Assembly (NCBI GenBank): GCA_964016885.1
Contig: OZ024742.1
Span: forward strand, 267,096,001 to 267,160,000
Reading direction: 5' to 3'
DNA length: 64,000 nt
Source of the DNA: Eledone cirrhosa
Taxonomy: Eukaryota
Positions 4,801-50,700 of this stretch are shown piece after piece. Each line of letters starts with the position of its first letter. Position 1 is the stretch's first letter. Under the pieces are notes generated by a model. The model did no database searches. It was not told where the DNA came from and was given only the letters and a program-made list of their open reading frames with translations. Made by a program: the position numbers and the translations under genes.

Positions 4801-5076
4801 ACATATATAATAAAAAAGAAAATATATTTTTACTAGGTCTGACAGTTGGCAGGTGAACAGTGAGCTGTACCGATGAAGGGTGATACACAGAAACATTATA
4901 TATATATTTCTCTCGTCTACGATTTCACAGAACTTATGTTCGTCGATTTCAGAGACTTGACTCCTTCCTTACTTTTCGTTGCATTTCTATATTTGTTTGT
5001 TTGTTTACTGTCTCGCTCGTTCCCCCTATTTACGTGTCCCAACGGCTTTCTTAAGCTGTTGCTCGCACCAACAAGA

Positions 5077-5133
5077 GGTATATGATCTTTAAAGCGATGA
5101 AATACCAATGAAGGCTGGAAGATCACTGATGAA
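5077..5133 (+). ncRNA. Putative non-circularly permuted hammerhead ribozyme (family P1, copy 1)
   Basis: GGTA-TA^-TGATCTT-TAAAGCGAT-GAAA-TACC-AATGAAGGCTGG-AAGATCA-CTGATGA-A; GGTA/TACC and TGATCTT/AAGATCA pair perfectly. Confidence 0.7.
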
Positions 5134-5596
5134 GGACTAATTTTATTCATATGTAACCCAATTGCAACCACACAGCATGCCATTTTTTCATATATTTATC
5201 TATTTTCCTCTGCTGTGACCCGTCTGTTTCTTTCTTACTGCTTCCCCTTTCTCTGTATCTCTCACTTTCTTTTTACCCCCTCTGCCAGTCACTCTCTCGG
5301 CTAGTCTCTTCCTCACACTTTCGCTCACTCACTCGCTGTTACTCCCTCTCCATCACTTCCTCCCGTTTGACCTGTGCGAAATCCTTCCCTCACTCACATT
5401 TCAACCAGGTTGGATGGTCTTTTTTTCTCTCGTCTACAATTTCACAGAACTTATGTTCATCGATTTCAGGGACTTGACTACTTCTTCCTCACTTTTCGTT
5501 GCATTACCATATTTGTTTGTTTGTTTACTGTCTCGCTCGTTCCCCCTATTTACGTGTCCCAACGACTTTCTTTAGCCGTTGCTCGTACCAACCAGA

Positions 5597-5718: not shown

Positions 5719-6125
5719 TATTGTATTCAGCCATGTAGAGCGAAATTTTCTTTTCATTATTTGAATATAGCAAAGCCGGTCATTAATCACTCGTATACTG
5801 ACTGGCAAGTCTGCAGATATGCAAAAGTTGCTGATCAGTGGGTCTGCTAATATGCAGATCTGACTGATCAACCAGTCTTCTAATATGCAAATCAGGCTGA
5901 TCAGTCACTGTATATTTTAGAAAATATATATTTTCACTAGCTCTGACAGTGAACTATACGTTTGAAGGGTAATACCCAGAAACATTAGTGTCTGCAGTTC
6001 TCTTGACATGCCAAAACAAGAGCAAGAATGAGGGGCTCATTCCAGTGACATGGCTTTAAAAATGAGGTTTGTTCGCATAATTGCAAACGAATCGAACACA
6101 AGAGCAATAATGAGGGGCTCATTCA
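5715..6125 (+). mobile_element. Octamer-containing HHR element with degenerate HHR (~5951-6000); related fragments at 4800-4897 and 13940-14093
   Basis: Three 33-bp TATGCAAAT..CTGATCAG units; GAACTATA-cgtttga-AGGGTAATACCCA-GAAA-CATTAGTG-TC-TGCAGTTC. Confidence 0.6.
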
Positions 6126-6131
6126 TTATAT

Positions 6132-7150
6132 ATGTACGGTCGTTACATTGAAGACTGTATCGGAGCCACGACCCTCACCCGAGAACAGCTCGACTCCTTT
6201 CTCTCCTTCTTCTGCTCCTTCCACCCCTCCCTCCACTTCACCACCTCTATCTCCACCACCCACGTCCACTTCTTAGACATCTCCGTCGCCTTCGACCCCT
6301 CCCACCACTCCCTCGTCACCTCTGCCTTCTTCAAACCCACCGACTTCCACTCTTACCTCGACTTCACCTCTTCCCACCCCACCCACACTAAACACTCCAT
6401 TCCCTACTCCCAACTTCTCAGGATCCGCCGCCTCTGTAGCCGTGATGCTGACTTCGAGTCCCAGGCCCTTTCCCTAGTCAGCCATTTCATCCGCAAAGGT
6501 TACCCCCCCCCCTCTCGTCTACACCACTCTCACCCGCGCCCGTGCTATCCCCCGCTCCACCACCCTCACCCCACGCCACCGCACACCCACCCACCGTCTC
6601 CCCTTCCCCATCACCTACCACCCCTCCACCTTATCCCTCCACCGCACCATCCGCCGCCTCTTCCGACGCCTCCAGTCCGACCCCTCCACCTCCCACATCT
6701 TCCCAACCCCACCACTCCCCTCCTTCAAACGCGCACGCAATTTCCGCACCCTCCTCGTCCACAGCTCCCTACCCCCAACCCACGCTCTGTTCCCCCCCGG
6801 TTCCTTTCCCTGTTTTAGGCCCCGCTGCAACACCTGTTCCCACATCACCAACACCACCACCTTCCAGGGTCCCAACGGCCACTCTCTCTCGGTCCGGCAT
6901 GCCTTCCGCTGCACCTCCTCCAACCTAGTCTACGGACTTCGCAGACAGACGGGACGTCGCCTGGCGGACCGAGTCACGGAGCACCTCCGGGATATTCGTC
7001 TCGGGGGCAGTTCCCCCATCGCCCGCCACTTTGGTGGCCCTGGACATTCCGCACGCCATCTCACAGTCTGTGGCCTACTCCAGTGCCACGGAACCCCCGC
7101 CAATCGCCTTACGGTCAAACAACGAACTATCTTCATCTTACAGACACCCC
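6132..7150 (+). pseudogene. PLE reverse transcriptase C-terminus plus GIY-YIG endonuclease, frameshifted
   Basis: ORF 6132-6818 N-terminal half matches PLE RT motifs; frame shifts in the poly-C run near 6505. Confidence 0.8.
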
Positions 7151-8669
7151 CCCCCCCGGCCTGAACTCCCCACCCTTATTCCTTTAGCCTTCGACCGCCC
7201 CCCCACACTTATCCCCCACTAACACCACTAACACACCCCTCCTTTTCACCGCCCACCCCACAACTAACAATACTAACACCTCCACTCCACCCCTCATCTG
7301 ACCACCCTTCCCCAACTAACATACTAACATCCCTTCCCTCCCCTCTTCTCCTCCTCCCCCTCCTTATCACACGCACACACCCACCGGCACATATATACAC
7401 GCGCTCTCACTGAACACACACCCTACTACCACCACTAACCCTCACCCCCACACCTCTCACCCCACACCTCCATCCCACCACCCCGCAACTAACCTCACTA
7501 ACACCCCCTAACCCCAAGCACACAAACACACGCACCCACTTACACCACCCACCCCACACGCAACTAACATCACTAACACCCCCAACCCCACGCACACGTA
7601 CCCACACACCCTCGTACACCACCAACTCTACACACCCTACCACCACTAACCCCCACTCACACCTGCATTCAATCCCTCCCCACCTCCCGTATACTAACAC
7701 CCACTAACACCTCTTCATCAAACTACACACACACCAGTACACCACACTCCCTCCATAGAACCACACACACCCTTCTCTCCCCGCTCCACCCACACCCTCG
7801 CTCCACACTCACTCATCCCACTAACACCCCTACTAATACACACACACACACCCTCCTCACTCCAACTTTCACACCTACCCATCCTAACCCCTTTACCATT
7901 CCACCGACTGCTGCTATGCTCTCTGACCACCTCCCAGCACAAACAGACCACAGCACTCCCACTGCTGACCACTTCCTGTTGCGGGCGCACCCCACATCTC
8001 TCCTCTACCGACCATCGCTTCATGGAATACCCACACGCAGAAATTGACCAATAACCAATCCACTAAACATCTTCGGAATTTACCAACTTTTCAACCATCC
8101 TCTTACGTAATCACCTATATAACTCCTCCCTCACACACACCCCCAATTCTCCACACGCCACCTACACCCACAACAGGCTTAAACCCCACACACACGTGCT
8201 TGCCACCACATATCTACACCCTCAGCCTCCTGATTCCTCTCCCCCCTCTATCCACACACGCACAGACACTCCGACCCCCCCCACACACACCTCTTCCTGA
8301 ACATGCAACCCTGTTCTTCCCCCAACCCTTACTTTCACATACACACACACACACACACGCACACCTACACACACACACCACCTTCAGCCCTCCCCGCTCG
8401 GACACCCCGTCTCCCTCTCCCCACTCCACCCGCCACCACCCCTACACACCCCACACCCTTCCACCACCTGTTTAACCCCCTTTTAATTTTAGTTTATTTT
8501 GATCATGCCTTTATTTTTAAATTTATCTCATTCCTTGTATTTTGATCATGCTTTATTTTTATTTTTATCTTTATTTTTTATTTTTTCATTCGCACCGTTT
8601 CCTTTCGCTATATGTCTCTCCACCACTCCCCTACACACCCTTTGAACTCTGTTCCCACACACTTCCCAC

Positions 8670-8973: not shown

Positions 8974-10054
8974 ACAAAATTTGTTTTATAAATAGAGACA
9001 TACCCATGGAAATCGTACCTTATCGGTTGGAAATACACTGGATAGTGGAAATATATTAGGGATTATTCAAACTTATGTGTGAATGTGCAAATGAATATGT
9101 AAATAATTGAAAAACAACCGTTTATTTAAATGACACTGGAGAAAGAGAGAGAGAGAAAGATATAAGTGGATAAAGGTAAAAAATATTACGAGAGAGATAG
9201 AGAGAAGAAATTAACAAGAGGATGAATAAAACTCATATAACGTTAATTTGGGGGAAATATATTCTAAGTATATATCTAATAGTACGTATATTTACGATTA
9301 ATTAGTTGTTTAAAATTCTTTTCTAATATAATATTTTCTGTTATAAGTAGATAGAAAAATAAATAGATAGAAAAATAGATAGAAAAATAAATAAAAAATA
9401 AATATATAAATATATAAATAGATAAATAAATAAATAGATGAGTATATCGTGTTATAGATAATTGTTTTAATGAGTTATGAGGGATATTGGTTTTGTATTT
9501 AATGTAAGTAAATATTAAGTTAAATTAAATTAAGTTAACTGAGATAATAAGAATATTTATATTCATATATTTTAAAATGGGAAGATACGGAAAAAAAACT
9601 CTGGATTTGTTTATTTATTCGTTAGTGTGAGACAATTTTGTCAAAATAAGTATAAATGTGGAAAGATATATTTAGCCAGAATGAGTTAGTGGTTATAAAT
9701 CTAATAAAATATATTGAACAAATATTAAAAATTCGAGAAAAGTTTAAAAAAAATAATTTATAAGAGATAAGTAATCTTTAAAAAATAAGTAATTTATAAA
9801 AATAGATAAAAAATTAAAGAAATAAAAAATTAAAAGTAAAGAATTAAAAATTAAGATTAAAATTAGAATTCAAATTCAAATTCAAATTTAAATTTAAATT
9901 AAAAAAGAATTTAGAATTATATATGTATATATTTTATGAAACTTTAAGAAGTGAAATTATCTCAAATGTTATAGATATGATTTATAGATATCAATATATA
10001 AAAACCAAGTGGATAAGATTGTTATGGAAATAAGAAGAAATATTATAAGTGTAA

Positions 10055-10460
10055 TTATAATTTATATATAGTTCTAAATGTTGAAATCAGGCGATGTCTA
10101 CAAGAACTAAATAAATTCGTTCTTAGATTAATAGAGTTCTTACATTTAAGAATGATAAACATTTCCTGAACACACAATTTGCAGAATCTAGATAAAGCTG
10201 TGTTCGGTAGGCGGGTGCTTCCGAAATTATTTCCCAAGTTAATGAATAGTCCATATTCTTGCATTTTAAGTTCCATATCAAGTTTGAAAGAGAAGTTGAA
10301 GATTTTTTATCAAATCTTTGGAAAGAGCATTTGTGATTATTCCAGCGACTTTTAAATTCTGTAGAAGTTGCACCTACATAGTTAAATATATTATCACTGG
10401 TTTTAACTGTACATTTATAGACCATGTCCTTATCTAAACACTTATTTTGTAAAGGACAGT
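10055..10460 (-). pseudogene. GIY-YIG endonuclease domain of a PLE, one frameshift
   Basis: ORFs 10123-10425 and 10055-10276 join to give VYK..YVG..R..NH..CKLC..E..IN.R..CRH. Confidence 0.85.
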
Positions 10461-11824
10461 TTAATTTAATTCTACCGAAACAGAGCTTTATCTAGATTCT
10501 GCAAATTGTGTGTTGAGGAAATTTATTTCATACTTAAATGTAAGAACTCTATTAATATAAGGACGAATTTATTTAGTTCTTGTAGACATCGCTTGAATTC
10601 AACATTTAGAAATATATATACATTATAATTACACTTATAATATTTCTACTTATTTCCATAACAATCTTATCCACTTGGTTTTAATGTATTGATATCTCTA
10701 AATCATATCTATAACATTTGCTATAATTTCAATTCTTAATGTTTGATAAAATATATACATATATAATTCTAATTTTTTAAAAATTTTATTTTAATTTTAA
10801 TTTTAATTTTAAAAGTAATTTTAATTTTAATAATTTTTAATTCTTTATTTTTATTTTTTATTTCTTTAATTTTTTTATCTATTTTTAAAAATTACTTATT
10901 TTAAAAAAATTACTTACCTCTTATAAATTATTTTAAAAAAAGTTTTCTCGAATTTTTAATATTTTTTCAATATCTTTTATTAGATTTATAACCACTAACT
11001 CATTCTGGCTAAATATATCTTTCAACATTTATACTTATTTTGACAAAATTGTCTCATACCAACGAATAAATAAATAAAACGAGAGTTTGTTCCGTGTCTT
11101 CCCATTTTAAAATATATAAATATAAATATTCTTATTAACTCAGTTAACCTAATTTAATTTAACTTAATATTTACTTACATTAAATACAAAACCAATATCC
11201 CTCATAACTCATTAAAACAATTATCTATAACACGATATACCCATCTATTCATTTATTTATCTATTTATTTATTTATTTATTTATGTATGTTTCTATCTAT
11301 TATTCTATGTATTTATTTTTCTATCTACTTATAACAGAAAATATTATATTAGAAAATAATTTTAAACGACTAATTAATCGTAAATACACGTACTATTAGA
11401 TATATACTTAGAATATATTTCCCCCAAATTAACGTTATATGAGTTTTATTCATCCTCTTGTTAATTTCTTCTCTCTATCTCTCTCGTAATATTTTTTTAT
11501 CTCTATCCACTTATATTTTTTCTCTCTTTCTTTCTCCAGTGTCATTTAAATAAACGGTTGTTTTTCAATTATTTACATATTCATTTGCATATTCACACAT
11601 ACGTTTGAATAATCCCTAATATATTTCCACTTCCAGTGAATTTCCAACCGATAAGGTACGATTTCCATGGGTATGTCACTGTTTATAAAACAAACTTTGT
11701 ATTTTATCTGATTAAAACGTAGCAATGTTGTCTTGGTTACCCTTGAAATATATATAATAAAATAAATATGGTTTTATAAATATAGTTTCCATTTATTTAA
11801 TATCATTGTATATATATATATATA

Positions 11825-12580
11825 CGGAAAAAATGAAACGAAATTTCATTTCTCACTCTTAGTACGGCTGTTACTTAAATATAAGTATATATACGTACAT
11901 TCATATATGTATACAGACGTACAGTAGTATGTATATATATACATACATGCACATATATATATATGTACGTATGGATTTACCGAACATTTATTATAATGCT
12001 CGATGTGTTTGTAAACACATCGAGCATTATAATAAATGTTCGGTAAATCCATACATACATATATATATGTGTGCATGTATGTATATATATATACATACTA
12101 CTGTACGTCTGTATACATATATGAATGTACGTATATATAGTTATATTTAAGTAACAGCCGTACTAAGAGTGAGAAATGAAATTTCGTTTCATTTTCTCCG
12201 TTTATCGTTTTCGGTGCGCCCGGCCTATTAAGTCACTCGATATGCAAATTAGGCTGCTCAGCCGTTAATATGCATAAGGAAAGTATATACTTTCAGACGT
12301 TCAATCATCTGGCAGAAAGGTATACGGTGCTGACGATAGCTAATAAGCTTGAAACTAGTACATCGTTCCTTTGTCAGTGTTGAACAAAAGAGCAACGATG
12401 CTTGCTAAACACTGTACTGCTTAATTCGGGATGTTTGTTTACAAACACATAGAGCATTACAATAAATGTTCGGTAAATCCATACGTACATATATATATGT
12501 GTGCATGTATGTATATATATACATACTACTGTACGTCTATTTACATATATGTATGTACGTATACATACTTATATATATAT
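11825..12580 (+). mobile_element. Octamer-family retrozyme-like element: spacerless palindrome (11825-12200) plus 430-nt partial tandem
   Basis: Fold-back centred at 12011-12012; 12013-12140 repeated at 12443-12575; single HHR per monomer. Confidence 0.85.
12324..12366 (+). ncRNA. Minimal type I hammerhead ribozyme
   Basis: ACGGTG-CTGACGA-TAGCT(AATA)AGCTT-GAAA-CTAG-TA-CATCGT. Confidence 0.85.
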
Positions 12581-12923: not shown

Positions 12924-12970
12924 ATAAATAATCAAATGTTTATACTGTATATATATATATATATATATAT

Positions 12971-13720
12971 AAATGAAAATAGAGAAATTACTGTGAGCAA
13001 GAAGCCAACTGTATTTCATAATATATAAGTGACTATAACGTCAAAATGGAAAAAAATTAACGTAAGATATGGGAAAATAATTGAAACTCAATTAAAAAAA
13101 TCAAGACAGAGATTTTATCCACATATTTTGTGAAATCCAGGGAAAAAACCAATATAGTCTTAACTCAGAATAACATAAAGTTTAAATACTCATCCTTCAA
13201 TTTGGAAAAACTACAAATGCTCTATATAGTCTTAAAATTTCACGAAACTTTTAAGTGGGTTTAGTCACGGATGGAATCGTTCCTCAGTAGAACTCAACAC
13301 GATAACCAAAACCCACTGCCAAAATATGCCACAAAGGGAATTTAAAAGCAGGTTAGTTCACCTCGTGCGGAATTATGAAAATAAACACACATGGAGAAAC
13401 ATGGCTGGTGACGTCAGAATGAGACGAATGTCTGTTTACAAGAAAAACTCTACAAAATATAAGGAATTCAGCAACTAGCAATATTATCGCGTTTTTTTAA
13501 AAAAAAACCGGGATAAGTCACAATTAATTTTAAGCATTCTAGGAAAAATTCCGAGTATAAATATAAATGAAATTAGAGAAATTAATGTGAGTTAGAAGCC
13601 AACAGTATTTCATAATATATAAGTGACTATAACGTCAAAATGGAAATAATTAACGTAAGATATATGAAAATAATTCAAACTCAATTCCAAAAAATCAAGA
13701 CAGAGATTTTATCCACAGAT
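12971..13720 (-). mobile_element. Retrozyme-like element with ~150-bp terminal direct repeat (period 594 nt) and one HHR at 13219-13293
   Basis: 12971-13123 repeated at 13565-13718; GTTCTA-CTGAGGA-ACGA...TCGT-GAAA-..-TA-TAGAGC. Confidence 0.7.
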
Positions 13721-14155: not shown

Positions 14156-14160
<5 letters not shown>

Positions 14161-15047
14161 TAATTCTAAGCATTAAAAACTAGATCCCTAAAATCATTGC
14201 GAGCGATAACTAAAATAAGTTATCGGGACAGAACGAATTGGAAGGGGAAAGTAAACAAACAACATGGTAGTAATGCAACGTAAAGAGAGAAAAAGAGAGA
14301 CAAGTCAATGAATCTTGTGGACTTAAGTCCCAACAAATCAATCGACGGGAAGAGGCAGACACGTCCGAGCCACGCGAAAAGTGAGAGAGAAAAGGATTTC
14401 ACACAGGAGAGAGCTTGTTCGGACTTAAGTCCACAAGATTCATTGACTTGTCTCTCTTTTCCGCTCTTTACGTTGCATTACTACCCTGTTGTTTCTTTAA
14501 TTTCCTTTGTCCCGATAACTTAATTTAGTTATCGCTCGCACTGATTTTAGGTATCTAGTCTTTAATGCGAAGAATACCAATGATAAACAGCAGACTACTG
14601 ATGATGGACAGTCCCGTTTCTCAGTCTATTTTCATTCATATGTATCACATTCGCAACAACGCAGCACAACATTTTTTCATTCACATATATTTTTTTCCCC
14701 TCGCGGTGGTTCGTATTTTTTCTATCACCTTACAGCTATCCTCTTTCTCTCTCCCCCTTCTCTCTCCTTGTACCTCTTGCTTTCTTTCACCCCCTCTGCT
14801 GGTCACACACTCTCGGCTGGCCTCATCCTCACACTTTCACTCACCCACTCTCTCACTTCCTCCCGTTTGACCTGTGTGAAATCCCCTTCTCTCTCACTTT
14901 TCGCGTGGCTCGGACATGTCTGCCTCTTCTCGTCGATTGATTTGTTGGGACTTAAGTCCACAAGATTCATTGAGTTGTATCTCTTTTCCTCTCTTTTCCT
15001 CTCTTTACGTTGCATCACTATCATGTTGTTTGTTTACATTCCCCTTT

Positions 15048-15050
<3 letters not shown>
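14156..15050 (+). mobile_element. Retrozyme-like element family P2: inverted segment (14156-14407) plus 527-nt partial tandem
   Basis: GGACTTAAGTCCACAAG at 14421 and 14948; homologous to family P1 over the pyrimidine-rich body. Confidence 0.8.
14550..14605 (+). ncRNA. Putative non-circularly permuted hammerhead ribozyme (family P2; GAAA lacks one A in this copy)
   Basis: GGTA-TC^-TAGTCT-TTAATGCGAA-GAA-TACC-AATGATAAACAGC-AGACTA-CTGATGA-T. Confidence 0.6.
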
Positions 15051-15098
<48 letters not shown>

Positions 15099-15485: not shown

Positions 15486-15779
15486 AAATGCACACACACA
15501 CACACACACACACACAATCACTCACACACATACATATATAGATATATGTATTAAATGACCGACAAGTTTGTTTAAACCCGGTACAATGAGGTAGAAAATA
15601 CAAAGGGAAAATGATGGAAAATGAAACAAAACAAAGTAAAGTCATGTTTTACACAGTGATTTATAATGTTAAACCCTCTTTTCAGGTGTGGCTCTGAAGC
15701 AGGCTTAGATAAAACAAACTAACGATTTGAATTTTTTCTGCAAGTCGCATGCGCGGGGTTGCTACAGTAACCATTTCGA

Positions 15780-17300
15780 TTCGTGTCTTTCTGATCTATT
15801 ATTTATTTCTGGCTTTAATCGGTTAATTAAAATGGCACCCTAAATTCTTAAATTTTCAGTATTCCTTTCAGTCTCTTCTATGCTGACCTCAATGTCATGG
15901 TTGTAGCGTCTGTCAAGATGTTCTTTGCCGGTAGAAGCTCACATTGCTGCGTATTCCGTGATCCGTGTGTGTAGTCTCCTTATGGTACTTCTGCTGCATG
16001 AAGAGCTGCAGTTTTTGTATGTGATCTTATAGAGCACTTATGCTTTCATGCACATTTCTGCGTTGTAGATGGGACAATTAGGAACTGTGCATATATCTCT
16101 GTATGTGGCGTGGTGTCTGTGAAACATTCCCTTCAAAGTGGGTTCCAAATGTGCCAGCTGTATATTTAGTCCCTCCCACCGGATAGCTCGTCTGATGGTA
16201 ACTCTCGTCTTCTTATTGAAATGTGGTAGCTTTAAGTAGCACATGTCTTCCTTGTTTCCTTACGTGCTGATGCCTTGGTATTTTTGTCGAATAGCAGTTT
16301 TCGATGAGAACTCACTGGAATTCCACTGTGCTGCAAGTCCTGAGATTTCTTTGTATACATAGCTTTTTTCCAGACTTCGAAAATCTCTCCCCACTTTCCC
16401 CGTAAAACTAGAGGTCCCACAAGAAGTACTCAAAAGACTCAAATAACTTGACCCCACCACACTTGGACAGAATAGATACTCTTTTGGTTTAGATTTAGTT
16501 TGCCTTTACATCTCTGTCCCCGCCTCTCCTGCTATCGACTTAATTACAGTAAACATTATTGCCTCTACAGAACTCAATTATTTTGCGCTCACTGCTACTG
16601 ACAAACCCGAACTGCTCTCTATAGTCATATGAAACACCTTTTTCCTGCTTGTAAATCTCAGGATTTCCGATGGGATCGAGTCTTTCAGGCGTGCTACCCA
16701 TCACGTATATGGACCAGTTTGAGCCCTCATCTCTCACCACCTGCCTCTCTTGTCCCTTCTTCTCCTGGTACGGGGTTGACATCCTTATGCTCATTTCATC
16801 ACGTGAAGAAACGTTATACACTTCTTCATTAAAACAATATTAATTAGACAACTGCATAAAGAAGTCAAGTAACATCAATGAGCTACATCTAATCTACAAA
16901 CGTTTTTCGCCATTCCAAACTACACAACATGATTAACGTTTGCTATTACAACCGAATTGCTGTCGAAAGAAAATTACACAAGTTAAAATGAATTTGAAAT
17001 AAACATTATAATCGCCACAGTTGCTACAACATCAACAGTAATACTTCCAGCACCAAAGATCAGCGTTCTAACAGGAATTACGATAAACATGATAGAACTA
17101 CCAACGAAACTACAAACAATCCACGTGTAACTGATCTATCTGGCTCGCTAACATCAAGAGAATTGGAGTTAAGTTATGGATTTAAATTCATCATAGGTCA
17201 ACTCTACACCGAGATGGTAAAGCTCGACATAGAACCGCACAAAGAAAAGTAAAAATCACACGAGCTTTGAAAACCACATCACAACCTTTGAGACAAAAAT
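15780..17300. pseudogene. Scrambled degenerate PLE: GIY-YIG plus linker on - (15780-16260), RT core on + (16270-16830), N-terminal-like region on + (16840-17260)
   Basis: VLYKIT..STIRRLHTRITE..LRI..ILINRLKPEINN (like 54248-54526); GLDLVCLYISVP..AID; GFPMGSSLSGVL; VTDLSGSLTSRELELSYGFKF. Confidence 0.65.
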
Positions 17301-17829
17301 GTCCACCAACCTGCATTAATTAAAGTTCTGGGGGTGACTGATATCATCAGACTGAAGCAGCTGTACTATGCATGTTTTATAATAATTTGCAGCAACTAAA
17401 ACACCGTTAAATAATTGGCATTGCACTCATACAGATATACTCTTCGATCATATACGCCGAACAAACCTGATACAATATAGAGATATCCACTGACATAAAT
17501 CAAAAGCTCAATAAATGAAACGTAAACCGACCATACCTAAAACCCGAAGTCGCCGATTAAGCTGATCAAAAGCTTACCCGCTTAACGAATCGAAACCCTG
17601 TAAACACACATTAACCTAATACAACACCCAACTCTCTTAACGCACTCGGAGAAACTAACGCAAATAAATTATAATTAAACCTGAATATAAATTCAAAATC
17701 CCCTGTTCCCATATCAAATTATAGAAAATATCCACACGATAACTATAAATATAACATAATTTCAAATGAAACACGAATTAAACCAAACCCAGATAACATC
17801 AAATAATGAAATAATGAAAGGACACATAT

Positions 17830-18480
17830 ACATTTACACACACACATATATACATATATACATATGTACGTATGGGTTACATCGAACATTAATAATAATA
17901 TTCGATTCGTTTCTAAACAAACGGCTCGATTAAAGCTATGCCATGGCGGTGACAAATCTTCATTCGTTTGTTCAACACTGGCATTGAGGAACAATGAACA
18001 TGTTTCTGGGTCATTGCCCTTCATCAATACTGTATACCTCTACCAGTTTGTTGAACAGTTGACAATATATAGTATTTTCTTAAGTACACATAGGCTGAGA
18101 TGCCTCATTTGCATACCGAGAGAGTTACGGCTGGCCTTGCAGAATATTAAAAATAAAATTATAATCTTATTTCTCGTCCTAGCACAGCTGATACATACAT
18201 GAAAGTATGTATATGTACACACAAACATACACAAAAACACACACATATGTATATGCACACACACACATATATATACATATGTACGTATACAGTCCGGGTG
18301 AAGGGAAATGCCTCAGAAACATGTTGATTGTTCCTCAATGCCAGTTTTGAACAAACGGATGACGATTTGTTATCAGCACGGCACAGCTTTAAACGGGCCG
18401 TTATTTACAAACGAATTGAATATTATTAATGTTCGATATAACCCATACATACATATGTATTTGTACATATGTGTGTGTGT
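17830..18480 (-). mobile_element. Octamer-family HHR element (415-nt period, - strand) with inverted segment 18290-18470
   Basis: CATATGTACGTAT at 17861 and 18276; HHR-like ACAGTA-TTGATGA-AGGGCAATGACCCA-GAAA-CATG-TT-CATTGT at 17991-18033; ATGCAAAT at 18107-18114 (-). Confidence 0.75.
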
Positions 18481-18745
18481 ATATATATATATATATATCT
18501 ATATATACTATAAAGTATGTCCATAGAATCATATGATAATATATATACATCATTTCCTCTCCCAATTAGCATAATTAACCACACAAAAATCAATTAGACC
18601 AGGCTATAAGATTAAAAGGCACCTATTAAGAAACAGTAAATAAATAGACGATAGCAGCCTCTTCGCGGCCAACCGCTATAGAATATTTACCCAACATTTC
18701 AACAGCACGCGGAAATTAATTAAATATACGGTCAACCATACACAA

Positions 18746-28153: not shown

Positions 28154-31100
28154 ATTGTTGTTATTACTCTTTGAGTCTCAGTCATTGATGTTAGTTAACT
28201 GGAAAGTTTGTTGAAGTGAATATCAAGCCACTACCTGCAGCCTCAGATATTCAGGACGTATCGGAGGGTTCTTGCTGTTCCCTGCAAGCATGCCTTTTGA
28301 AGCGTTCCAAAAAGCGTGAAGGGGCCAATTTTCTTTAACCATCCCTGGAAACTTTTTGAGATAGTCCCCAGTGCGCCTATGACAATCGGGATCACTTTGA
28401 CTTCATGGCAGTTCCAAATCCTTTTTACCTCCCACTTTAAGTCCTGGTATCGGTTAATTTTCTCCCTCTCCTTCTCTTGCACTCTCGTGTCGAATGGGCA
28501 GGCCACATCCACAATCAGGCACGATCATTTTTCTTTGTCCACAACCACCAGGTCAGGTCTATTGTGTTCCAGTTTCTTGTCCGTCTGTATCCTAAAATCC
28601 CACAGCACCTTCACCTGATCGTTTTATATCATCGCCTCTGGCTTATGCTCATACCACTTCTCAGAATGTGGTAAATTGTTTACTTTGCATAGGTGCCAGT
28701 GGATCACCCTTCCCATCACATCATGTCTCCAGCCCTTATAGTGGGTCTGGGCTAGGTGTTTACACTCGGATACAATGTGAGCCACAGTCTCCTCTCTCTC
28801 TCCACAGATCCTGCACAATGGGCTAGCCTCCTCCTTGTAAATATGGTGTTTCAACCACTTCGTTTAGAGGGCCTGCTCCTGCGCAGCCATTAACATTCCT
28901 TCTGTAGCCTTTATAAGGTCTCCTCTTTTCAACCAGTTCCATGTCTGTTGATCTCTAAATTCAGTTTTCTCAAAGAACGTACTATGAAGGGATTTTTCCT
29001 GAAGGCTGCTCTTTCTCCGTGATGTTATTTCCTTCTTGGACATCCCCTGGCCTTTTGTCCCCTCCTTCAGTACAGTTCTGAGCATTGGCTCCTTACTATC
29101 AGTCACGTATTTGTGTAGGTTGTTTTTCTCCATCTGAACACAGTCCTCTATGCTGATAAGACCTCTTCCACCCTCAGATCTCCTTAAGTAGAGTCTATCG
29201 ACATCACTCCTCTTGTGGAACATGTTGTAGATAGTCAATATCTTCCTAGTCTTCCTATCCATTTCTTTTTGTTCAGCAACATTCCATCTCAGAATTCCCG
29301 CACTGTACATAATAATAGACACAGCTCGGGAATTTACTGCACTTATGGCATTCCTACTGTTCAGATGTGACTTTAATACGCTCCTTACTCTCCGAATGTA
29401 TTCAGTTCTTATCAATTCCTTCATTTTTTTGTTATTGATGTCATCAGCCTCCAGAACGCCCAAATACTTGTATCCTTCTTCAGAGTCAATTTCCTTTATC
29501 ATCTCACCTGTTGGTACCTGGATTCCGTTACTTCTGCTCAACTTACCCCTCTTCATCACAATGACTCCACACTTACTAATACCAAATTGCATACATATAT
29601 CATTGCTGAAAGTACTGACAGTGTCAACAAGCACATCCAACTCCTTCTCACTCTTCCCGAAGAGCTTAGGATCGTCCATGAAGAGGAGGTGATTGATGGT
29701 AAGCCCTCCCTTTCCCAACCTGTATCCTGCTCTCACTTTTCGCAGTACACTGGTCAGGGGCATCAGGGCAAGGACAAACAACAGAGGGGACAGACTATCT
29801 CCCTGGAAGATACCTCTCTTGATCTTCACGCTTCCCAAGGATTCTCCAGTTGATGTTAACTCTGTTTCCCAGGACTTCATACTTTTGCCCAACAACTGTC
29901 TGATGTTATCTGCCACCTTGAAGATCTGCAGGCTTTTGGTGATCCAAGAATGAGGCACCATGTCAAATGCCTTTTTGTAGTCTATCCATCCCATGGCAAG
30001 ACCAGTGTGTCTCCTCTTGCAATTCTTCATTAACATCTTATCAATAAGTAACTGGTCCTTTGTACCACGTGACTTCTTTCGGCATCCTTTCTGTTCGTCC
30101 GGTCACAAGTTGTTTGTGTGGAGGTGATGGTAGATTTCCTCAGACATAATGCTTGTTAACAGTTTCCACATTACGGACAGACATGTGATAGGTCTTTAGT
30201 TGGTAACATCATTACCCTTGATTCGGTCTTTCATTATCAGAACTGTGGTACCTTTTGTCAACCACTCTGGTACTTCACCTGACATCAAGCAGTCATTGAA
30301 GATGGTTGTCAGTTTCGGGTGGAGGGATGTTATATTTTTAATCCAATACCCCTGCACACCATCTGGGCCTGGTGATTTCCAGTTGGTTAGTTTTTTCGGC
30401 CTGCCCCTTAAGAGTTTCAACTGTGATACTCAAATCAGTTTGTTGGTGTGCCTGTTCACTAATCTCCTTCTGTACTGTCTCAATCCACACTGCCTGGTCA
30501 TTATGTTTAACATCCTGCTCCCATATTCCTCTCCAGAATGTTTTAGTCAGGGATCAAGTCGTTGCCTCTTTCTTTCCCTTCAAGCTGTCCAAACAGCATC
30601 TTCTGGTTGTTGTTGAACATGCGGTTCTGTCTATACTGGCTGGCTCTGTTCTCGTATCGCCTGATTTTTGCACTCTTTGCTACAATGCGTTGCTTCAGTT
30701 CCTCATTGATAATATTTAGATTTTTCCTCCTAGTTTTGTACTTTATTTCCAGTCTATTTTTAGTGTTTATGTTTTTTAGTATCCCATTCAGTAGGGACTC
30801 AAGCTTTCCAATGTCATTTCTCATTTCCCTGATTTGACCACTCAGTTGTTTCTTCCACCAAGGCTCTGCTCTTTCTTGTCTGTTGTTTCCTCTCGCTTTT
30901 ATACCAAGTAGTTTCCTCACCGTATTTACTGTTGCTTTGAGGATATTGTTGCACTGGTGAAGGCTCCTTGCCTCAAGGTATGGGATGACTTTGTTTACCT
31001 TAGCTGTTGTTTCTTTTAACTTTTTCCTGTCTACAAATCTTAGGTTCATAGGTTTCCCACTATCATTGTTCAATTCATCTACCACTAAGTTTAGGATATC

Positions 31101-31790
31101 AACCAAATCTTGTCCTAGCCCGTCAGCATTCATCTCCTCAGTGGCCGTATCTCTGTTCCAGGTATTATTTATCTCAGGATTCAGATCATTGTCTGCTTCG
31201 GGTGGTTCCTCCGTTCTCTCGACCTCTTCACCTTCATTTCCCACTGGCTCGTTTGCCTGGCTCTCCATCTCTCCACTCTCCATCTCCAAGCAAATATCTC
31301 TGCTCAGATCCTCCAGTTCCAGCTCGCGTATCCACCCATTAGTTCTTATTACCCGAGCCTGCCCGGCCAATTTTTGTTCATCTAATTTAAATAGACCAAT
31401 CTCGTTCCAGATGTTATGCATCCGTTTCCTATAGCCTTTCTCCTTGGGGTTACTCTTCAGGTAACATTGCATAACAGTTTTATTCAATTCTTTCGTCCAG
31501 TTGGTTCTGGTCCCTTTCCTTCTTCTTCTTCCTCCGACACCAGCAGTATTTTGTTGACAGCCATGTCCCTGCTGCTGAGCCAGGGAGCACCTGTTGGGTG
31601 AGAGTCTGTTACATGACATTCTAGTCTCCATTTCACCGTTATTCCAACTGTGTAGGTTCGACATTTAAACACTCTTATCGAGGATTGGCGAATGTATGGT
31701 TACATAACCACCGGTGAATTCATCGCCTCCGGTGGTTTCATCACTCCACGTGATTTTTGTGTGGCATTATCACGCTGTAGACGAACATAA
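28150..31790 (-). mobile_element. Near full-length R4/Dong-clade non-LTR retrotransposon (RT plus restriction-like endonuclease), inactivated
   Basis: [93 protein letters not shown]; 3' end runs into (TAA)n. Confidence 0.92.
28243..31664 (-). pseudogene. Single RT-RLE ORF broken by frameshifts and stops
   Basis: ORF pieces 30543-31664, 30196-30420, 28864-30036, 28624-28854, 28243-28512. Confidence 0.9.
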
Positions 31791-35370: not shown

Positions 35371-38300
35371 ATGACCTCACTCAGAATAGGCAGCATAAAT
35401 GCGCGTGGCCGGGGGATCGTCATGGAAGCAGGACCACCTACTCAACTATCTCAGGTCACTAAACATAGATGTAGTGGCCATAAGCGAGATCAGAATCTCC
35501 GAAGCACGGGCCTTCGCACCGATCTTCGGCGGCTACGATGTATACGCATCTCCCAGCCGTCCTGGATCGGGGGGAGGAGTTGCTGTGGCTTTTCGGAGAT
35601 GCTTGGATCTCGCCATACGGGCCATCCTCCTGGATCTAGAAGGTAAGTTGGTGGTGCTGAGCGTGACCAGCAGAGACGGGAAAGCTTTCAGGCTAGTGGC
35701 CGGCTTTGCCCGACAGGAGCAGGGCGGCCTGATTTCTTCCGGCGTCAGGAGACCTTTCTTGAAACGTCCCGCCTTTAGTGTTAGTGGGCGACTGGAACGG
35801 GATCTTAGATGCACGCTGGGACTGTGTGGGATTAACGGGTAGGGAAGGAGGGTGCTAGAGCCTCGCAAACCTTCTCAGACGGTTTCAACTTTCTGACAGG
35901 TACCGTCTGGATTTCCCGAATGTGCCAATGTGGACATAGACAAACTGCATCGGGTCATCCAGATCATATTTTGATACGGTATTTTGTAGGGAAATAGATA
36001 GGTCTAGCATAGGCTGTCCACATTTCAAAATAGTCGACTACACGGACCACAAATTCGTGATCTGTGAGGTTGACTTAGATAGGCTTCATAGACAGGGACC
36101 CGGCTACTGGAAGCTAAACGCGTCGTTAACAGCGCGCAAGCCCTATAGAGACCGGATTAACGAACTAGTTAAGCGGGCGTTGACGGGGGCGATCGTCAAC
36201 AACAAATGGTGGTTTGCTCTGAAAAGAGCGATTAGAATAGAGTCTATTAGCTTTAATAACGTTTAGCAATAGAGAAAAATAGAGCAGAGTGAGAACTAGT
36301 TAGAAAATTAGACGAGGCTCTTAGTTAATGCATCACGACCGACGAAATTGGCCCTTGACCAATTCTTCAATGCAAAGCACGAAGGCTGCGTTGTCAGAGA
36401 TAGGGTGCGTACTCTCAGATACGAGGGCACGAAAGCCGTTCAATGGGCCGGAGTGGCAGAGGTGAGTCGTGGCAATAAATCCTCGATCCGGTCTTTGGTG
36501 GACCACGACGGGTGCATGCTACTAGATCCCGGGAAAATGTGTGAAGCTTTTCAGCGACACTTCGCTCAGCTGTTCGGGGTTAGCAGCGAGCCGGATCGAG
36601 GGATGGACTTTAGTGCCTACCTCACCGGACTGCCGCGGCTCTCGGCCACTGAGGCGGAGTGTTGCGAAAAGCCGATAACAGCCGCTGAAGTACGGATGGC
36701 AATGACTGGCTGCACAAGAGGTAAATCGCCTGGTTTGGATGGTCTGCCCTACGAACTTTACGTACACATGCCAGCCTTACTCGGAGGCCTCTTGGCGGAC
36801 GTCTACTGCAACTTGCAACAGAACGTGAGAATTCCCAGCTCTGTGAGTCGAGGTGCGGTGGCGCTACTTAGAAAGGATCCGAACAAAGGGGATAACATAG
36901 ATAATTTCAGGCGCATAACTCTGCTAAACACAGAGTTCAAGATTTTGGCCAAGGTGCTAACAAAGAGGTTGACGCTTGTCGTTAGTGGTCTGGTGTGAGA
37001 GGCGCAGACATGCGCCTTCCAGACAGATCTATCCACGACAACCTTCACCTCATGCGATACATCGTGGAGAGGGTAGCTAGGGAACCTGGCACGGGTGAGT
37101 CCTTGATCAATTTAGATCAGTCGATAGCTTTCGATAGGTTCGACCATCGTTATCTGGTGGCAGTCCTGAGGGCGGCTGGCTTTGGGCCCGTCTTCAGAGG
37201 CATGATCACTGCCATGCACAGCAACATCTGCTCTGTGGTGATATTGAACGGTTACCTTTCGGAACCGATCAACATCATGCACTCTGTCCGCCAAGGATGC
37301 CCCCTCACGTCCCTGTTGTACGTATTGATTCTCGAACCATTACTACCCAAACTGGAGGCGTTGAGTGGGGTCCCGCGCGAAATAGATGGCGGAAGATCCG
37401 TGTCAGCATATGCGGACGATGTCACCGTAGTGGTGTCGAACGCCAAACACCTCGAGGTGATCGGCATTACACTAAGAGAATACGAGGCGGTGACAGGAGC
37501 AATGAACAAAAATGAAAAGTCGGTGGTCCTGCAGCTTGACACCAGCAGAGGCAGGTCCATGCCGTCCAACAGCGTCGACGGGCGCTGGACGAACGGTCTG
37601 GTTAAATTGCTAGGCGTCTGGTTCGGTCCGGACCTCCAGCCGGACAAAAACTGGGACGAGGTGACGAGCAGGGTGGCTTCTCTCACCCAGAAATGGGCAG
37701 AGAGGAAGCTATCCATGAAAGGTCGAGCGGAGGCGGCGAATGCGTACACCGCGTCCGTCATCTACTACCGCCTGACCATCGTGCCTTGTCGTAAGCCTTG
37801 CCTGACTGCGCTGGAACGTTTGCTCTTTCGCTTTTTGTGGAAGGGACGCGCTCCGATGATCAAGCGATCTATCTGCTGTCAACACCCGCTACGTGGAGGG
37901 CTGGGCAAGCTGTGGCTGATGATGCGCAGATACGCGCTTAGGCTACGACATCTCCTCCTCTTCCTCGACGGTGATCAGGTGTGGTCGTCGTTTGCTAGAC
38001 GCGCCTTTCCCCAGCTCGTCTCCTTGACGGAGCTGCAGTCCTGTGTCAAGCGAAGACCGAGAGGGAACGCTTGGAGACTGGAATGTCTTCAGGCGCTCAC
38101 AGTCCTCGACCAGTCGGGCAATGTGATCAGTGCAAACTCCACCTTGGCGTTCTATAGAAGATTAGTGGAGGGGAAGTACGACGACGCTTTGTGGAAACTC
38201 TAGGCGTCGACGAAATTCAATTAGCCTATGTCTTCGGCAGTGCTATCGGGCCGGGGCCTATGGACCACTTCCAGAAATCCCTGGCCTGGCAATGCCACCT

Positions 38301-38718
38301 AGGACCTTTGCCAGTTCGGGATAAACTCTACAGGCATGGAGGTGCCGTCAGCCGGACATGTCCGAGATGCGCACAGGGCGACGAAACCGTCCTGCTGCCG
38401 CGTGTAGGACGGATCCCGCTCTCAGTTGAGTCCATCGTGAGGATTGCACCGCCATCTTCCTTTAGCCAGGAAGGGCAGGTAGTTTTTATCTATCTGGTGG
38501 CCATGGCGAAAGAAATAGTATGGTGGACGCGTTTGAAAAGTCTGAAGACGAGCACTTACTTCTTCGGTGATGCCCTGATTAACTTTTTCAAATTTCCAAT
38601 GAAAAGGAAAATCAGGGTAGAGATGGAAGTGCTCTCTTCCCAGCATTTTGTTGAAAGATGGGTGAGAGAGGCAAGAATGGCCCGAGCGAATGGGCTTACT
38701 CTGAGTATCTGCCTGTAA
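35371..38718 (+). pseudogene. ORF2 (APE-RT-Zn finger), frameshifted
   Basis: ORF fragments 35371, 35399, 36057, 36348, 36995, 38191. Confidence 0.9.
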
Positions 38719-46436: not shown

Positions 46437-48190
46437 ACACGACAACCTCTACCCCATATATCATGGAGAGAGACAAAGAATGGTATAAACAAGGTTTCGA
46501 TGGGATCTGGTCAACTTTGATCAATCGAAAGCTTTCGATAGGGTCGACCACCAATACCTGCAGGCTGTCCTCAAGGCAGTTGGGTTCGCTCCCGCCTTCA
46601 GAGGCAGGATCACTGCAATGCACAGCGGCACCTGCCTGGTGGTCAAAGTAAATGGCCATCTTTCGAAACCGGTTCAGTTCTTCCGATCGGTACGTTAAGG
46701 GTGCACTCACTCCTCCCTTCTGTACGATTTGACTATTGAGCCATTCCTGCGGAAACTGGAGCTGTTGCAGAGCATCCCGCTCGAACAGGGACGTTGAAAG
46801 GTTTCTTCGGTATATGTGGACGGCATGACCGTGATGATGTAGAACACCTTGGAAATCGAGATTGGTGGCACCTATTGAAGGGAAATGAACGGCTGAAGAG
46901 AGTAAAACTGAACCCGAAACAGTCGGTGGACTTGCATCTCGGCACCTGGAGAGGCAAGTACCTGCCGTTCAACAGGTTCGTAGGGCGCACGACGGTCGGA
47001 CCGGCAACGTTGCTCAGGATCTGTTTGGAATCAGACTTACTGGTGGATAAGAATTGGAAGGAAGTAACGGACAGTGTAGCCACTCTAACCCAGAAATGGG
47101 CCAAGAGTAAGCCGTCTCTGAAAGGTCGGACGAAGGTCACGAATGCCTACATCTCGTCCGTCATCTATTACCGCCTGAGCGTCGTACAGTGCTCCCGGCG
47201 CGCCTCGCCAAATTGGAACGACTGTGAACTGGTGTGATCACCTTTTGTGAAACAGGCTTTTCCGAGGCTCGTCTCTTTCACTGAGTTGCAGCCCTGGGAC
47301 AAGACGAGACCGAGACTGACCGCTTGGCATCTGGATCGCACGCCCTTCTATCAGGCCGGCAACGAGGTCAGTGGAACTTCCATTCACGATGTCCATAGAT
47401 GGTTAGTTGAGGGCAAGTGAGACGAGGCATGTAGAGAGTCTCTGAAGTCGAACTGACCAATTGGTACAGGAGGACTTTCGAGACGTGGATTATGGATAAC
47501 TTTAAGAAATCCTTCGCTAGGCTGTGCTACTGTGGAAACATTGCCGTTTCGAGATAATCTCTTCAGACACGGAAGTGTTGTCAGACGGACCTGCCCGAGA
47601 TGCACGCAGAGCGATGAAACCGTTCTGCACGCACTCGTCCAGTGTCCGTACATTACTAACTTGTGGAGTTATATGGAACCGCTGTTATAAGGTGTATAAC
47701 GGATCCGGCTATCAACCGAGTCCTTGGTGAACATCACCCCATCGCTTTTTATTGGCCGGAAAGGGCTGGCAATTTTCCTGTCTGCTGGCGGTAGTGAAAA
47801 AAGTTGTGTGGTGGACCAACTTGAAAGGACTGAAGACAGATACTTTTCTCTTCGGCCAATCCCTCATCGACGATTTCAAGTTTCCCTTGGAAAGGAAGTT
47901 GTGTGTGAACAGAGAAGTTAACTCTGAACATGTACTTGTAGGCTGGCTAATTTGAGGAGGAGAAGGGTGCCCTTCTCTGGTGACATCGAGGCATCTGCTG
48001 GTTCATGATTGGTGGTGCAAGTCGATCCTGCGTGGTTATCCGCCTTATTGGGGAATTTTCATTGTTCTATTTCTCTTGTTTATTGTTATTGTTTTTTTAT
48101 ATTGTTTACTTGATTTTTTTGTAACCCCAAGTTGTCACCGTCTATTGTATTGTCTCCTATATGTCAGTCCTTGAGGCCAACAAATGAAAC
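46437..48190 (+). mobile_element. Third, 5'-truncated Tx1-like LINE copy
   Basis: Starts at HDNL; DKNWKEVT..LTQKWA..SLKGR..VIYYRL; CPRC..ET; ends before ATT repeats. Confidence 0.8.
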
Positions 48191-48545: not shown

Positions 48546-50172
48546 TCTTTGAGTCTCAGTCATTGATGTTAGTTAACTGGAAAGTTTGTTGAGATGAAGA
48601 TCAAGCCACTACCTGCAGCCTCAGATATTCAGGACGTATCGGAGGGTTCTTGCTGTTCCCAGCAAGCATGCATTTTGAAGCGTTCCAAAAAGCGTGAAGG
48701 GGCCAATTTTCTTGAAACATCTCTGGAAACCTTTTGAGATAGTCCCTAGTGCGCCTATGACAATCGGGATCACTTTGACTTCATGGCAGTTCCAAATCCT
48801 TTTTACCTCCCACTTTAAGTCCTGGTATCGGTTAATTTTCTCCCTCTCCTTCTCTTGCACTCTCGTGTCGAATGGGCAGGCCACATCCACAATCAGGCAC
48901 GATCTTTTTTCTTTGTCCAAAACCACCAGGTCAGGTCTATTGTGTTCCAGTTTCTTATCCGTCTGTATCCTAAAATCCCACAGCACCCTCACCTGATCGT
49001 TTTCTATCACCGCCTCTGGCTTATGCTCTACCACTTCTCAGAATGTGGTAAATTGTTTACTTTGCATAGGTGACAGTGGATCACCCTGCCCATCACATCA
49101 TGTCTCCAGCCCTTATAGTGAGTCTGGGCTAGGTGTTTACACTCGGATACAATGTGAGCCACAGTCTCCTCTCTCTCTCCATAGATCCTGCACAGTGGGC
49201 TAGCCTCCTCCTTGTAAATGTTGTGTTTCAACCACTTCGTTTTGAGGGCCTGCTCCTGCGCAGCCATTAACATTCCTTCTGTAGCCTTATTAAGGTCTCC
49301 TCTTTTCAACCAGTTCCATGTCTGTGGATCTCTAAATTCAGTTTTCTCAAAGAAGGTACTATGAAGGGATTTTTCCTGAAGGCTGCTCTTTCTCCTTGAT
49401 GTTATTTTCTCCTTGGACATCCCCTGGCCTAGTGTCCCCTCCTTCAGTACAGCATTGGCTCCTTACTATCAGTCACGTATTTGTATAGGTTGTTTTTCTC
49501 CATCTGAACACAGTCCTCTATGCTGATAAGACCTCTTCCACCCTCAGATATACTTAAGTAGAGTCTATCGACATCACTCCTCTTGTGGAACATATTGTAG
49601 ATAGTCAATAGCTTCCTAGTCTTCCTATCCATTTCTTTTTGTTCAGCAACATTCCATCTCAGAATTCCCGCACTGTACCTAATAATAGACACAGCTCGGG
49701 AATTTACTGCACTTATGGCATTCCTACTGTTCAGATATGACTTTAATACGCTCCTTACTCTCCGAATGTATTCACTTCTTATCAATTCCTTCATTTTTTT
49801 TTCTTGATGTCATCAGCCTCCAGAACGCCCAAATACTTGTATCCTTCTTCAGAGTCAATTTCTTTTATCATCTCACCTGTTGGTATCTGGATTCCGTTAC
49901 TTTTGCTCAACTTACGCCTCCTCATCACAATGACTCCACACTTACTAATACCAAATTGCATACATATATCATTGCTGAAAATACGGACAGTGTCAACAAG
50001 CACATCCAACTCCTTCTCACTCTTCCCGAAGAGGATGTGATTGATGGTAAGCCCTCCCTTTCCCAACCTGTATCCTGCTCTCACTTTTCGCAGTACACTG
50101 GTCAGGGGCATCAGGGCAAGGACAAACAACAGAGGGGACAGACTATCTCTCTGGAAGATACCTCTCTTGATC

Positions 50173-50174
<2 letters not shown>
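48546..50174 (-). mobile_element. 5'-truncated second copy of the R4/Dong element, between (TTA)n tracts
   Basis: Highly similar to 28156-29826; (TTA)n at 48527-48545 and 50175-50223. Confidence 0.92.
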
Positions 50175-50225
<51 letters not shown>

Positions 50226-50229
50226 AACA

Positions 50230-50700
50230 AAGCACCAGCAATGCAGGGGGATAATTGCTGGCCTAGTGCCAAGAGTAGAAACAATTATTATTATTAAAAA
50301 TAGACGTTATGGTGGTGGATATCAGAATCGCTGGAACGTCGGATAAAATGCTTTTAGGGATTTGATTCTGCTATTTAAATTCTGAGCTGAAATACTGTCG
50401 AGGTCACCTTTTCCTTTCATTCTTCCAGGATCCATAAAATAAAGTATTGGGTTTTATATAATTGACTCATCTCTATGTATTGTGCATTGATGGGAAATCC
50501 TTATGTTATGAAAGCGGCGCATTGGAAGAATGTTTAGAGCGTGGGAGAGAATACTTTGCAGTATTTAATTACGACTTTCTACATTCTGATTTCAAATACT
50601 GCCGAAGTTGATTTGCTTCTAATTCTCCAGGGTTCTATAAAATAAAGCGTCCGCAAAGAACTGATGGCTTTGCGCCTAAATTAGAAATCATTGTTATTAG
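50230..50700 (+). mobile_element. Cluster of SINE fragments (50230-50295, 50310-50470, 50514-50700)
   Basis: Same SINE head, core and tail motifs. Confidence 0.6.

What the first reader, a model, noticed from the sequence alone, without database searches (positions are those of the whole stretch)
11825..12580. Single insertion showing the full signature: fold-back plus 1.3 monomers with one intact HHR
Seen: a 375-bp palindrome with a 2-nt loop is joined to a 430-nt terminally redundant unit. The HHR lies mid-monomer rather than in the redundant part. The same layout occurs at 12971-13720 (594 nt), 14156-15050 and 17830-18480 (415 nt). Inference: a repeat boundary away from the cleavage site implies RT read through the cleavage junction, so the template was circular or multimeric RNA, followed by snap-back or second-strand priming.
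Basis: partly seen in the sequence, partly recalled or inferred. Interest (0 to 1): 0.7.

Follow-up and report, generated by a model that had tools for sequence, protein, structure and literature searches.

The report
Hammerhead retrozyme with Penelope insertion footprint
This is one copy of a very abundant 430-base non-coding repeat that carries a predicted self-cutting RNA motif, and across the family's copies the two mirror-image arms nearly always end at two different fixed sites, which likely means a Penelope-type enzyme copied the RNA from both sides of a DNA cut; it is a known kind of element, and whether the RNA was a circle is not settled.

Summary
The layout is real: a 386-nt palindrome (11820-12205, 2-nt loop), a 430-nt period and one hammerhead (HHR; cut predicted at 12360/12361) outside the redundant part. 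It is one copy of a non-coding repeat family (12,686 exact HHR-core matches), a non-LTR retrozyme with the published Penelope-like (PLE) footprint: partial tandem, head-to-head inverted arm, one-sided tail, (TA)n target.

In 168 loci, 3' ends fall at two sites 59 nt apart, neither the cleavage site. In 59 of 63 two-arm insertions with both ends canonical, one arm uses each site. 5' ends scatter; 5 of 287 lie at the cleavage site. Symmetric fold-back junctions are at chance level (8 of 96), so this palindrome is a special case and snap-back is not the rule. Two primed cDNAs fit better.

A multimeric or circular template is supported; circle versus uncleaved linear multimer is unresolved. The scan noted similar elements on other DNA of this genome. 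New member of a known kind.

The parts
11820..12017 (-). Left, inverted arm: 0.47 monomer, monomer positions 235 to about 434; its 3' end is at site B (it carries the tail) and abuts (TA)n
   Evidence: (L001)
11820..11878 (-). Tail (about 59 nt between sites A and B); present at this outer end only
12006..12017 (.). Arm junction at a native 5-bp micro-hairpin of the monomer. The 2-nt loop (12011-12012) reads as the left arm's strand; 5-nt microhomology is available
12013..12574 (+). Right arm: about 1.3 monomers of the 430-nt unit; its 3' end is at site A (tail-less) and abuts (TA)n
12013..12149 (+). First pass of the redundant segment; shares two derived bases with the left arm that the second pass lacks
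12436..12577 (+). Second pass of the redundant segment (pseudo-LTR-like repeat)
12147..12205 (+). Internal copy of the tail; contains a predicted stem-loop ending at site B
12309..12378 (+). Type I hammerhead: stem I 12325-12329/12361-12365 with distal extension, core from 12330, stem II, GAAA at 12351, palindromic minimal stem III; predicted cut 12360/12361
12962..13720 (-). Separate family E2 (630-nt consensus unit, 594 here), 1.27 units, one fixed 3' end, no inverted arm; HHR core at 13287 (minus), stem III broken in this copy
14156..15051 (+). Separate family E3 (546-nt unit): inverted arm plus 1.15 units; only a half HHR core (14599). The family has two fixed 3' ends, but this copy ends at neither
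17826..18490 (-). Sister family E4: 1.08-unit arm with HHR core at 18027 (minus) plus an inverted 0.53-unit arm

Best explanation
This is a copy of a non-coding 430-nt hammerhead repeat (a non-LTR retrozyme) whose two head-to-head arms end at two different fixed sites in a TA run, likely because a Penelope-like reverse transcriptase/endonuclease working in trans primed one cDNA from each side of a cut target. Shown: two fixed 3' ends (A and B, 59 nt apart); one arm at each in 59 of 63 insertions; (TA)n at both outer ends in 52 of 59; variable 5' ends; read-through of the cleavage site; both arms from one subfamily lineage. Inferred: (1) a PLE protein, probably a dimer, binds near the tail stem-loop and nicks both strands of (TA)n; (2) one strand is extended from site B, the other from site A; (3) each cDNA runs for a variable length along a template of at least 1.3, often 2 or more, near-identical units (an uncleaved tandem transcript or a ligated circle); (4) the two cDNA ends are joined with little or no microhomology. 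In this copy both cDNAs stopped at the same native hairpin, which gave the palindrome.
For: A+B in 59 of 63 (BB 4, AA 0; p 1e-13 against 0.5), replicated in three samples: 15/17, 25/26, 19/20. Three of the four BB cases look atypical on inspection. Family E3 shows the same complementarity in 5 of 6. Both outer ends lie in (TA)3+ in 52 of 59; junction gap or overlap is within 5 nt in 65 of 96. Arm start points match in 8 of 96 (6.9 expected) and arm lengths are uncorrelated (rho -0.04, n=57). The two arms share subfamily alleles: 43 of 1173 discordant, against 37.8% for random pairs. Literature: a purified PLE protein cuts and extends both strands, starts at two internal sites that bound the tail, is predicted to be a dimer, and prefers unprocessed RNA (PMC11167929). 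The layout is the standard PLE one (PMC8557442; PMC3846280).
Against: No autonomous partner was identified: one abundant RT-coding family with its own HHR shares only simple repeats with this monomer (36 loci). 33 of 96 two-arm insertions have a non-canonical end and were left out of the A+B count. In this copy the left arm and first pass share two derived bases absent from the second pass, which needs template heterogeneity, DNA copying or later conversion. 5' ends are enriched at the hairpin (25 of 285 in a 19-nt stretch, p 0.001), so fold-back may contribute there; alignment run-on could inflate this count. An endonuclease that resolves a double-stranded intermediate at the tail could also give A+B ends.
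Confidence: 0.7

Rival explanations
1. Template question, version 1: the template was a self-cleaved, ligated 430-nt RNA circle read more than once round.
For: No 5' pile-up at the cleavage site. Passes within an arm differ no more than the two arms do (276/6154 = 4.5% vs 449/10385 = 4.3%), so template units were effectively identical. Subfamily haplotypes are uniform along most multimeric arms. Stem I keeps pairing through a G-U to U-G double change. Other animal retrozymes accumulate as circles (PMC7229834, discussion). Family E2 has an HHR with a stable stem III (19 of 28 loci), yet its copies read through the cut site.
Against: Rare variants shared by both passes are scarce: 3 shared vs 70 private. 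This copy's passes are not equivalent. One arm (L109) switches subfamily haplotype away from the cut site. Family E3 has the layout without a complete HHR. The minimal stem III predicts poor monomer cleavage (PMC4209133).
Confidence: 0.4
2. Template question, version 2: the template was an uncleaved linear transcript of a genomic partial tandem or array, with internal initiation; the HHR plays no part in forming the redundancy.
For: Tandem arrays of several kb up to tens of kb exist. HHR mutants do not affect PLE insertion in vitro (PMC11167929). Naiads lack canonical HHRs yet have the layout (PMC8557442). Short arms share rare variants with only one pass of the long arm in three insertions (L001, L068, L084).
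Against: No excess divergence between passes over same-register arms. The weak trend for one register (3.8% vs 4.5%) is not significant (p 0.08).
Confidence: 0.5
3. Snap-back or self-priming: one cDNA folds back on a hairpin and copies itself, making the inverted arm (self-priming was proposed for PLE palindromic junctions in PMC3846280).
For: This copy is a near-perfect palindrome centred on a native hairpin, and its arms share two derived bases. 5' ends are enriched at that hairpin.
Against: Only 8 of 96 junctions are symmetric, the chance level. The loop belongs to the short arm, whose self-copy cannot supply the 370 nt beyond site B. The outer ends follow the A+B rule.
Confidence: 0.12
4. 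Post-insertion DNA events (local duplication, palindrome formation) made the overlap and the inversion.
For: Long arrays carry rare variants in periodic subsets of units (L064, L195), so DNA-level duplication does act on them.
Against: Same period and same two 3' ends at dispersed loci; A+B rule; TA runs at both outer ends.
Confidence: 0.04

Closest known systems
Animal non-LTR retrozymes (Cervera and de la Pena 2020, PMC7229834; Li, Clavereau, Pollet 2026, 10.64898/2026.07.22.740005)
   Same: Non-coding tandem unit of a few hundred nt with one type I HHR per unit; monomers to long arrays; AT-rich; PLE-type RT family present in the same genome; proposed to be moved by PLE proteins.
   Different: The HHR has a minimal PLE-like stem III and a U-U at the base of stem II. 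Most sampled copies are 0.5-1.5-unit arms in inverted pairs, not arrays. Expression, cleavage and circles are untested here. No pLTR homology to a coding PLE was found.
Insertions of endonuclease-bearing Penelope-like elements (PMC8557442 Fig. 2; PMC3846280; PMC11167929)
   Same: Partial tandem forming a pseudo-LTR, head-to-head 5'-truncated inverted copy, tail at one end only, (TA)n targets, HHR in the repeat, two fixed 3' ends.
   Different: No ORF. The tail is about 59 nt (30-40 nt in the papers). The papers call the tail optional or 'often at one end'; here it is counted as a near-strict one-arm-each rule.
L1 twin priming (recalled, not looked up beyond)
   Same: Two primed cDNAs give a 5' inversion.
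   Different: Here the arms overlap in sequence and both start at fixed internal sites; no poly(A) tail.

Membership tests
Non-LTR retrozyme | Type I HHR in each repeat unit | tested here: met
   Descriptor hit in the monomer; stem I pair 126-162 is G-U 171, U-G 74, A-U 32 (part of the sample was chosen on this motif); sister family keeps the fold with other stems. Rfam gave no hit.
Non-LTR retrozyme | Short non-coding unit in head-to-tail copies, at least two HHR-bearing units at some loci | tested here: met
   430-nt unit; no ORF of 150 aa or more at this locus; dimers to arrays.
Non-LTR retrozyme | Transcription, self-cleavage and circular RNA | not testable with these tools
   Needs RNA data or bench work.
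Non-LTR retrozyme | No LTR, PBS or PPT of plant LTR retrozymes; type I rather than type III HHR | tested here: inconclusive
   Type I topology shown; the repeat is a variable-length permuted overlap, not a fixed LTR; PBS and PPT were not searched for.
Non-autonomous PLE derivative | PLE insertion structure: pseudo-LTR, head-to-head inverted copy, one-sided tail | tested here: met
Non-autonomous PLE derivative | Sequence shared with the pLTR of an autonomous PLE | tested here: inconclusive
   Only one RT-coding family was compared (36 loci): simple-repeat matches only. Other PLE families were not sampled.
Autonomous PLE | RT plus GIY-YIG ORF | tested here: not met
   No ORF in the element; no match to the window's PLE-like protein pieces joined to an arm among the loci then held.

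The most novel reading that the evidence does not exclude
The thousands of copies record the PLE integration reaction in vivo: a dimeric RT/endonuclease primes both strands of a TA run from two fixed sites on an RNA circle, one site per strand, so pseudo-LTR, inverted arm and one-sided tail all come from one two-ended rolling reaction. This would explain PLE inverted repeats without antisense self-priming and tie retrozyme circles directly to insertion.
Probability: 0.3. Interest if true: 0.6.

Novelty: new member of a known kind. Interest (0 to 1): 0.33.

Why it matters
The element type and its footprint are published. What the copies add is a count that bears on an open question: how PLE inverted arms and tails form. 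The one-arm-per-site rule (59 of 63) and chance-level fold-back junctions favour two-strand priming, as the 2024 in vitro work allows, over the self-priming proposed in 2013. I did not find such a count in searches, which cover open-licence papers only. A 430-nt RNA with two mapped start sites is a compact substrate for testing PLE integration.

Tried and rejected
Rfam at gathering and at E<=10: no hammerhead; only TA-rich miRNA-type matches far below threshold.

RNA evidence: no RNA holder listed. Contigs of three runs of unknown kind were laid; they cannot show ends or strand and are not used.

A 'heterodimer circle' reading of L067 (alternating haplotypes with switches near the cut site) was dropped: the full haplotype table shows scattered single-site changes, not unit-wise switches.

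Four 5' ends at monomer position 127 lie in different flanks; the cluster did not grow in the larger sample and is left unexplained.

My first HHR descriptor missed family E2's ribozyme because the stem III range was too short; corrected. That first descriptor gave 7 sites in the window against 2.2 in shuffles, so it is weak evidence alone.

Shared-rare-variant tests for circle versus linear multimer had too little power. The partner search found an RT-coding family (Pfam RVT_1 E 7e-5, below cut-off; no Pfam hit for the window pieces; no PDB hit) without homology to the monomer.

A genome-wide count of tandem HHR pairs was not obtained. One search gave empty output from a parameter error (repeated). 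Unit counts printed for long arrays are inflated by my chaining and are not used. Empty-site alleles were not available.

Full report
Setting. The window lies in a 3.0-Gb, AT-rich, microsatellite-rich genome (G000:C3).

Observation. The stretch 11820-12205 is self-inverted (95.9%), and 12006-12149 recurs at 12436-12577 (period 430). The perfect stem is 42 bp around a 2-nt loop. A type I hammerhead core starts at 12330, with a predicted cut after 12360. It has a 5-bp proximal stem I with a distal extension, a short stem II opened by U-U, and a minimal palindromic stem III, the design described as dimer-dependent for metazoan and PLE HHRs (PMC4209133; I read part 1 of 4). Rfam does not detect it. 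One stem I pair occurs as G-U (171), U-G (74) and A-U (32). These are a few lineage events counted many times, and two of my three samples were chosen on HHR sequence, so core conservation in them is not independent evidence. The sister family at 17830-18480 keeps the same fold with different stems.

Family. A 24-nt core pattern has 12,686 exact matches, with 0 for the reversed control. I mapped copies to the monomer in three samples: 29 best-scoring loci, 73 positional loci and 66 positional loci of the window's subfamily, 168 in all. I dropped 22 overlapping duplicates and 29 array loci (L111-L139), and kept 10 array loci apart. Of 293 arms, 109 end at site A (position about 375), 127 at site B (about 434) and 57 elsewhere. 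The 59 nt between A and B is the PLE 'tail'. There are 96 head-to-head two-arm insertions (one local duplicate dropped). Both ends are canonical in 63: A+B 59, B+B 4, A+A 0. Three of the four B+B cases are atypical: in two the extra arm is not followed by TA, and in one the arm runs on into an A-like end. Both outer ends abut (TA)n in 52 of 59, and the junction is within 5 nt of blunt in 65 of 96. The window copy is B (left, 0.47 unit) plus A (right, about 1.3 units).

5' ends are spread over the monomer: 5 of 287 lie within 5 nt of the cleavage site (7.3 expected), and no 3' end does. 183 of 291 arms cross the site once and 44 twice or more (loci were chosen on the HHR, which inflates crossing). 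So cDNA did run through the site, and the template held more than one unit in register. The repeat boundary, however, is set by the two fixed 3' sites and by random 5' truncation, not by cleavage.

Snap-back. The two arms start within 15 nt of each other in 8 of 96 insertions, against 6.9 expected, and arm lengths are uncorrelated. The window's palindrome is therefore an exception, centred on a native 5-bp hairpin. Conversion within a perfect palindrome, local DNA copying, or two non-identical template units could each explain that.

Circle or linear multimer. Passes within an arm and the two arms share subfamily alleles (discordant 39 of 842 and 43 of 1173, against 37.8% at random). Divergence is alike in all registers (4.5, 4.3, 3.8 and 5.2%; none significant) and below random pairs (6.8%, first 102 loci). 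Rare variants are almost all private (70 vs 3 shared within arms; 109 vs 9 between arms). Template units were thus near-identical, which fits a circle or a young linear multimer. Arrays of several to tens of kb exist, and longer multimers show periodic subset sharing from DNA-level duplication. The question stays open.

E2 (12962-13720) belongs to a 630-nt family with one fixed 3' end (26 arms), no inverted arm in 28 distinct loci, and a minus-strand HHR with a stable stem III in 19 of 28; the window copy lacks one strand of that stem. E3 (14156-15051) belongs to a 546-nt family with two 3' ends about 40-47 nt apart, complementary in 5 of 6 insertions with both ends canonical, and only a half HHR core. 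So the layout does not need a complete hammerhead. E4 ends fall in TA/TG tracts and the A/B test there is inconclusive.

Literature, with what I saw. PMC8557442 (passages): partial tandem, inverted 5'-truncated copy, 30-40-bp tail often at one end, (TA)n bias, Naiads without canonical HHR. PMC3846280 (passages): the same layout, and self-priming proposed for palindromic junctions. PMC11167929 (parts 1-2 of 4): both strands cut and extended, two internal start sites bounding the tail, predicted dimer, unprocessed RNA the dominant substrate. PMC7229834 (passages and discussion): retrozyme circles as proposed templates for PLE RT. bioRxiv 10.64898/2026.07.22.740005 (parts 1 and 3 of 5): retrozymes derive from PLE pLTRs; one of nine dimers cleaved in vitro. 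I read no supplements; Fig. S2 of PMC11167929 and the bioRxiv supplements may bear on end-pairing. Earlier scan notes reached the same classification on other DNA; I saw them after forming my reading.

Partner. An RT-coding family with about 21,000 candidates and its own HHR is present. I take it for a PLE from recalled motifs; Pfam gave only a sub-threshold RVT_1. It shares no non-simple sequence with the monomer, so the partner is unidentified.

Verdict. Real, well-defined, new member of a known kind. The useful addition is the counted A+B rule. Interest 0.33.

Noticed in passing
window 6114-7164 (+) and 8670 (+): Decayed RT-coding element with a C-terminal region I read as GIY-YIG-like (from recall) and an HHR-like motif about 1.5 kb downstream; about 21,000 candidates genome-wide, many 95-97% identical in protein.
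   Followed up: partly
window 15700-16500 (-): Second decayed coding fragment with stops, resembling a PLE C-terminal region (from recall).
   Followed up: no
window 12962-13720 family (L230-L259): 630-nt HHR repeat with a stable stem III, a single fixed 3' end and no inverted arms in 28 loci. It may use a different partner and is a better candidate for a true circle template.
   Followed up: partly
window 14575-14610 and 5035-5402: Family E3 keeps a CUGAUGA half core with a conserved GAAA upstream rather than downstream, also in the 66%-identical relative at 5035; resembles the 'half core' noted for Naiads in PMC8557442.
   Followed up: partly
window 1069 (-), 1252 (+), 26821 (+), 1765 (-), 56064 (+): Further HHR descriptor hits of other families; 1069 and 1252 form a head-to-head pair.
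   Followed up: no
window 9905-10778: Another inverted pair (307 nt, 92%) with a 274-nt spacer, not related to the 430-nt family.
   Followed up: no
G000:C1 about 96.99-97.04 Mb; C4 about 351.90-351.93 Mb; C28 about 36.02 Mb; C11 about 3.30 Mb: Clusters of tandem copies of the 430-nt unit spanning several to tens of kb; other multimers (L195, L064) show higher-order patterns of shared variants.
   Followed up: partly
L054, L061, L064, L067: Four independent arms begin at monomer position 127, just before the HHR core; unexplained.
   Followed up: partly
window 28864-31664 (-), 36312-38718 (+), 46740-47237 (+), 49791-50306 (-): Long reading frames that look like non-LTR retrotransposon RT fragments (from recall).
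   Followed up: no
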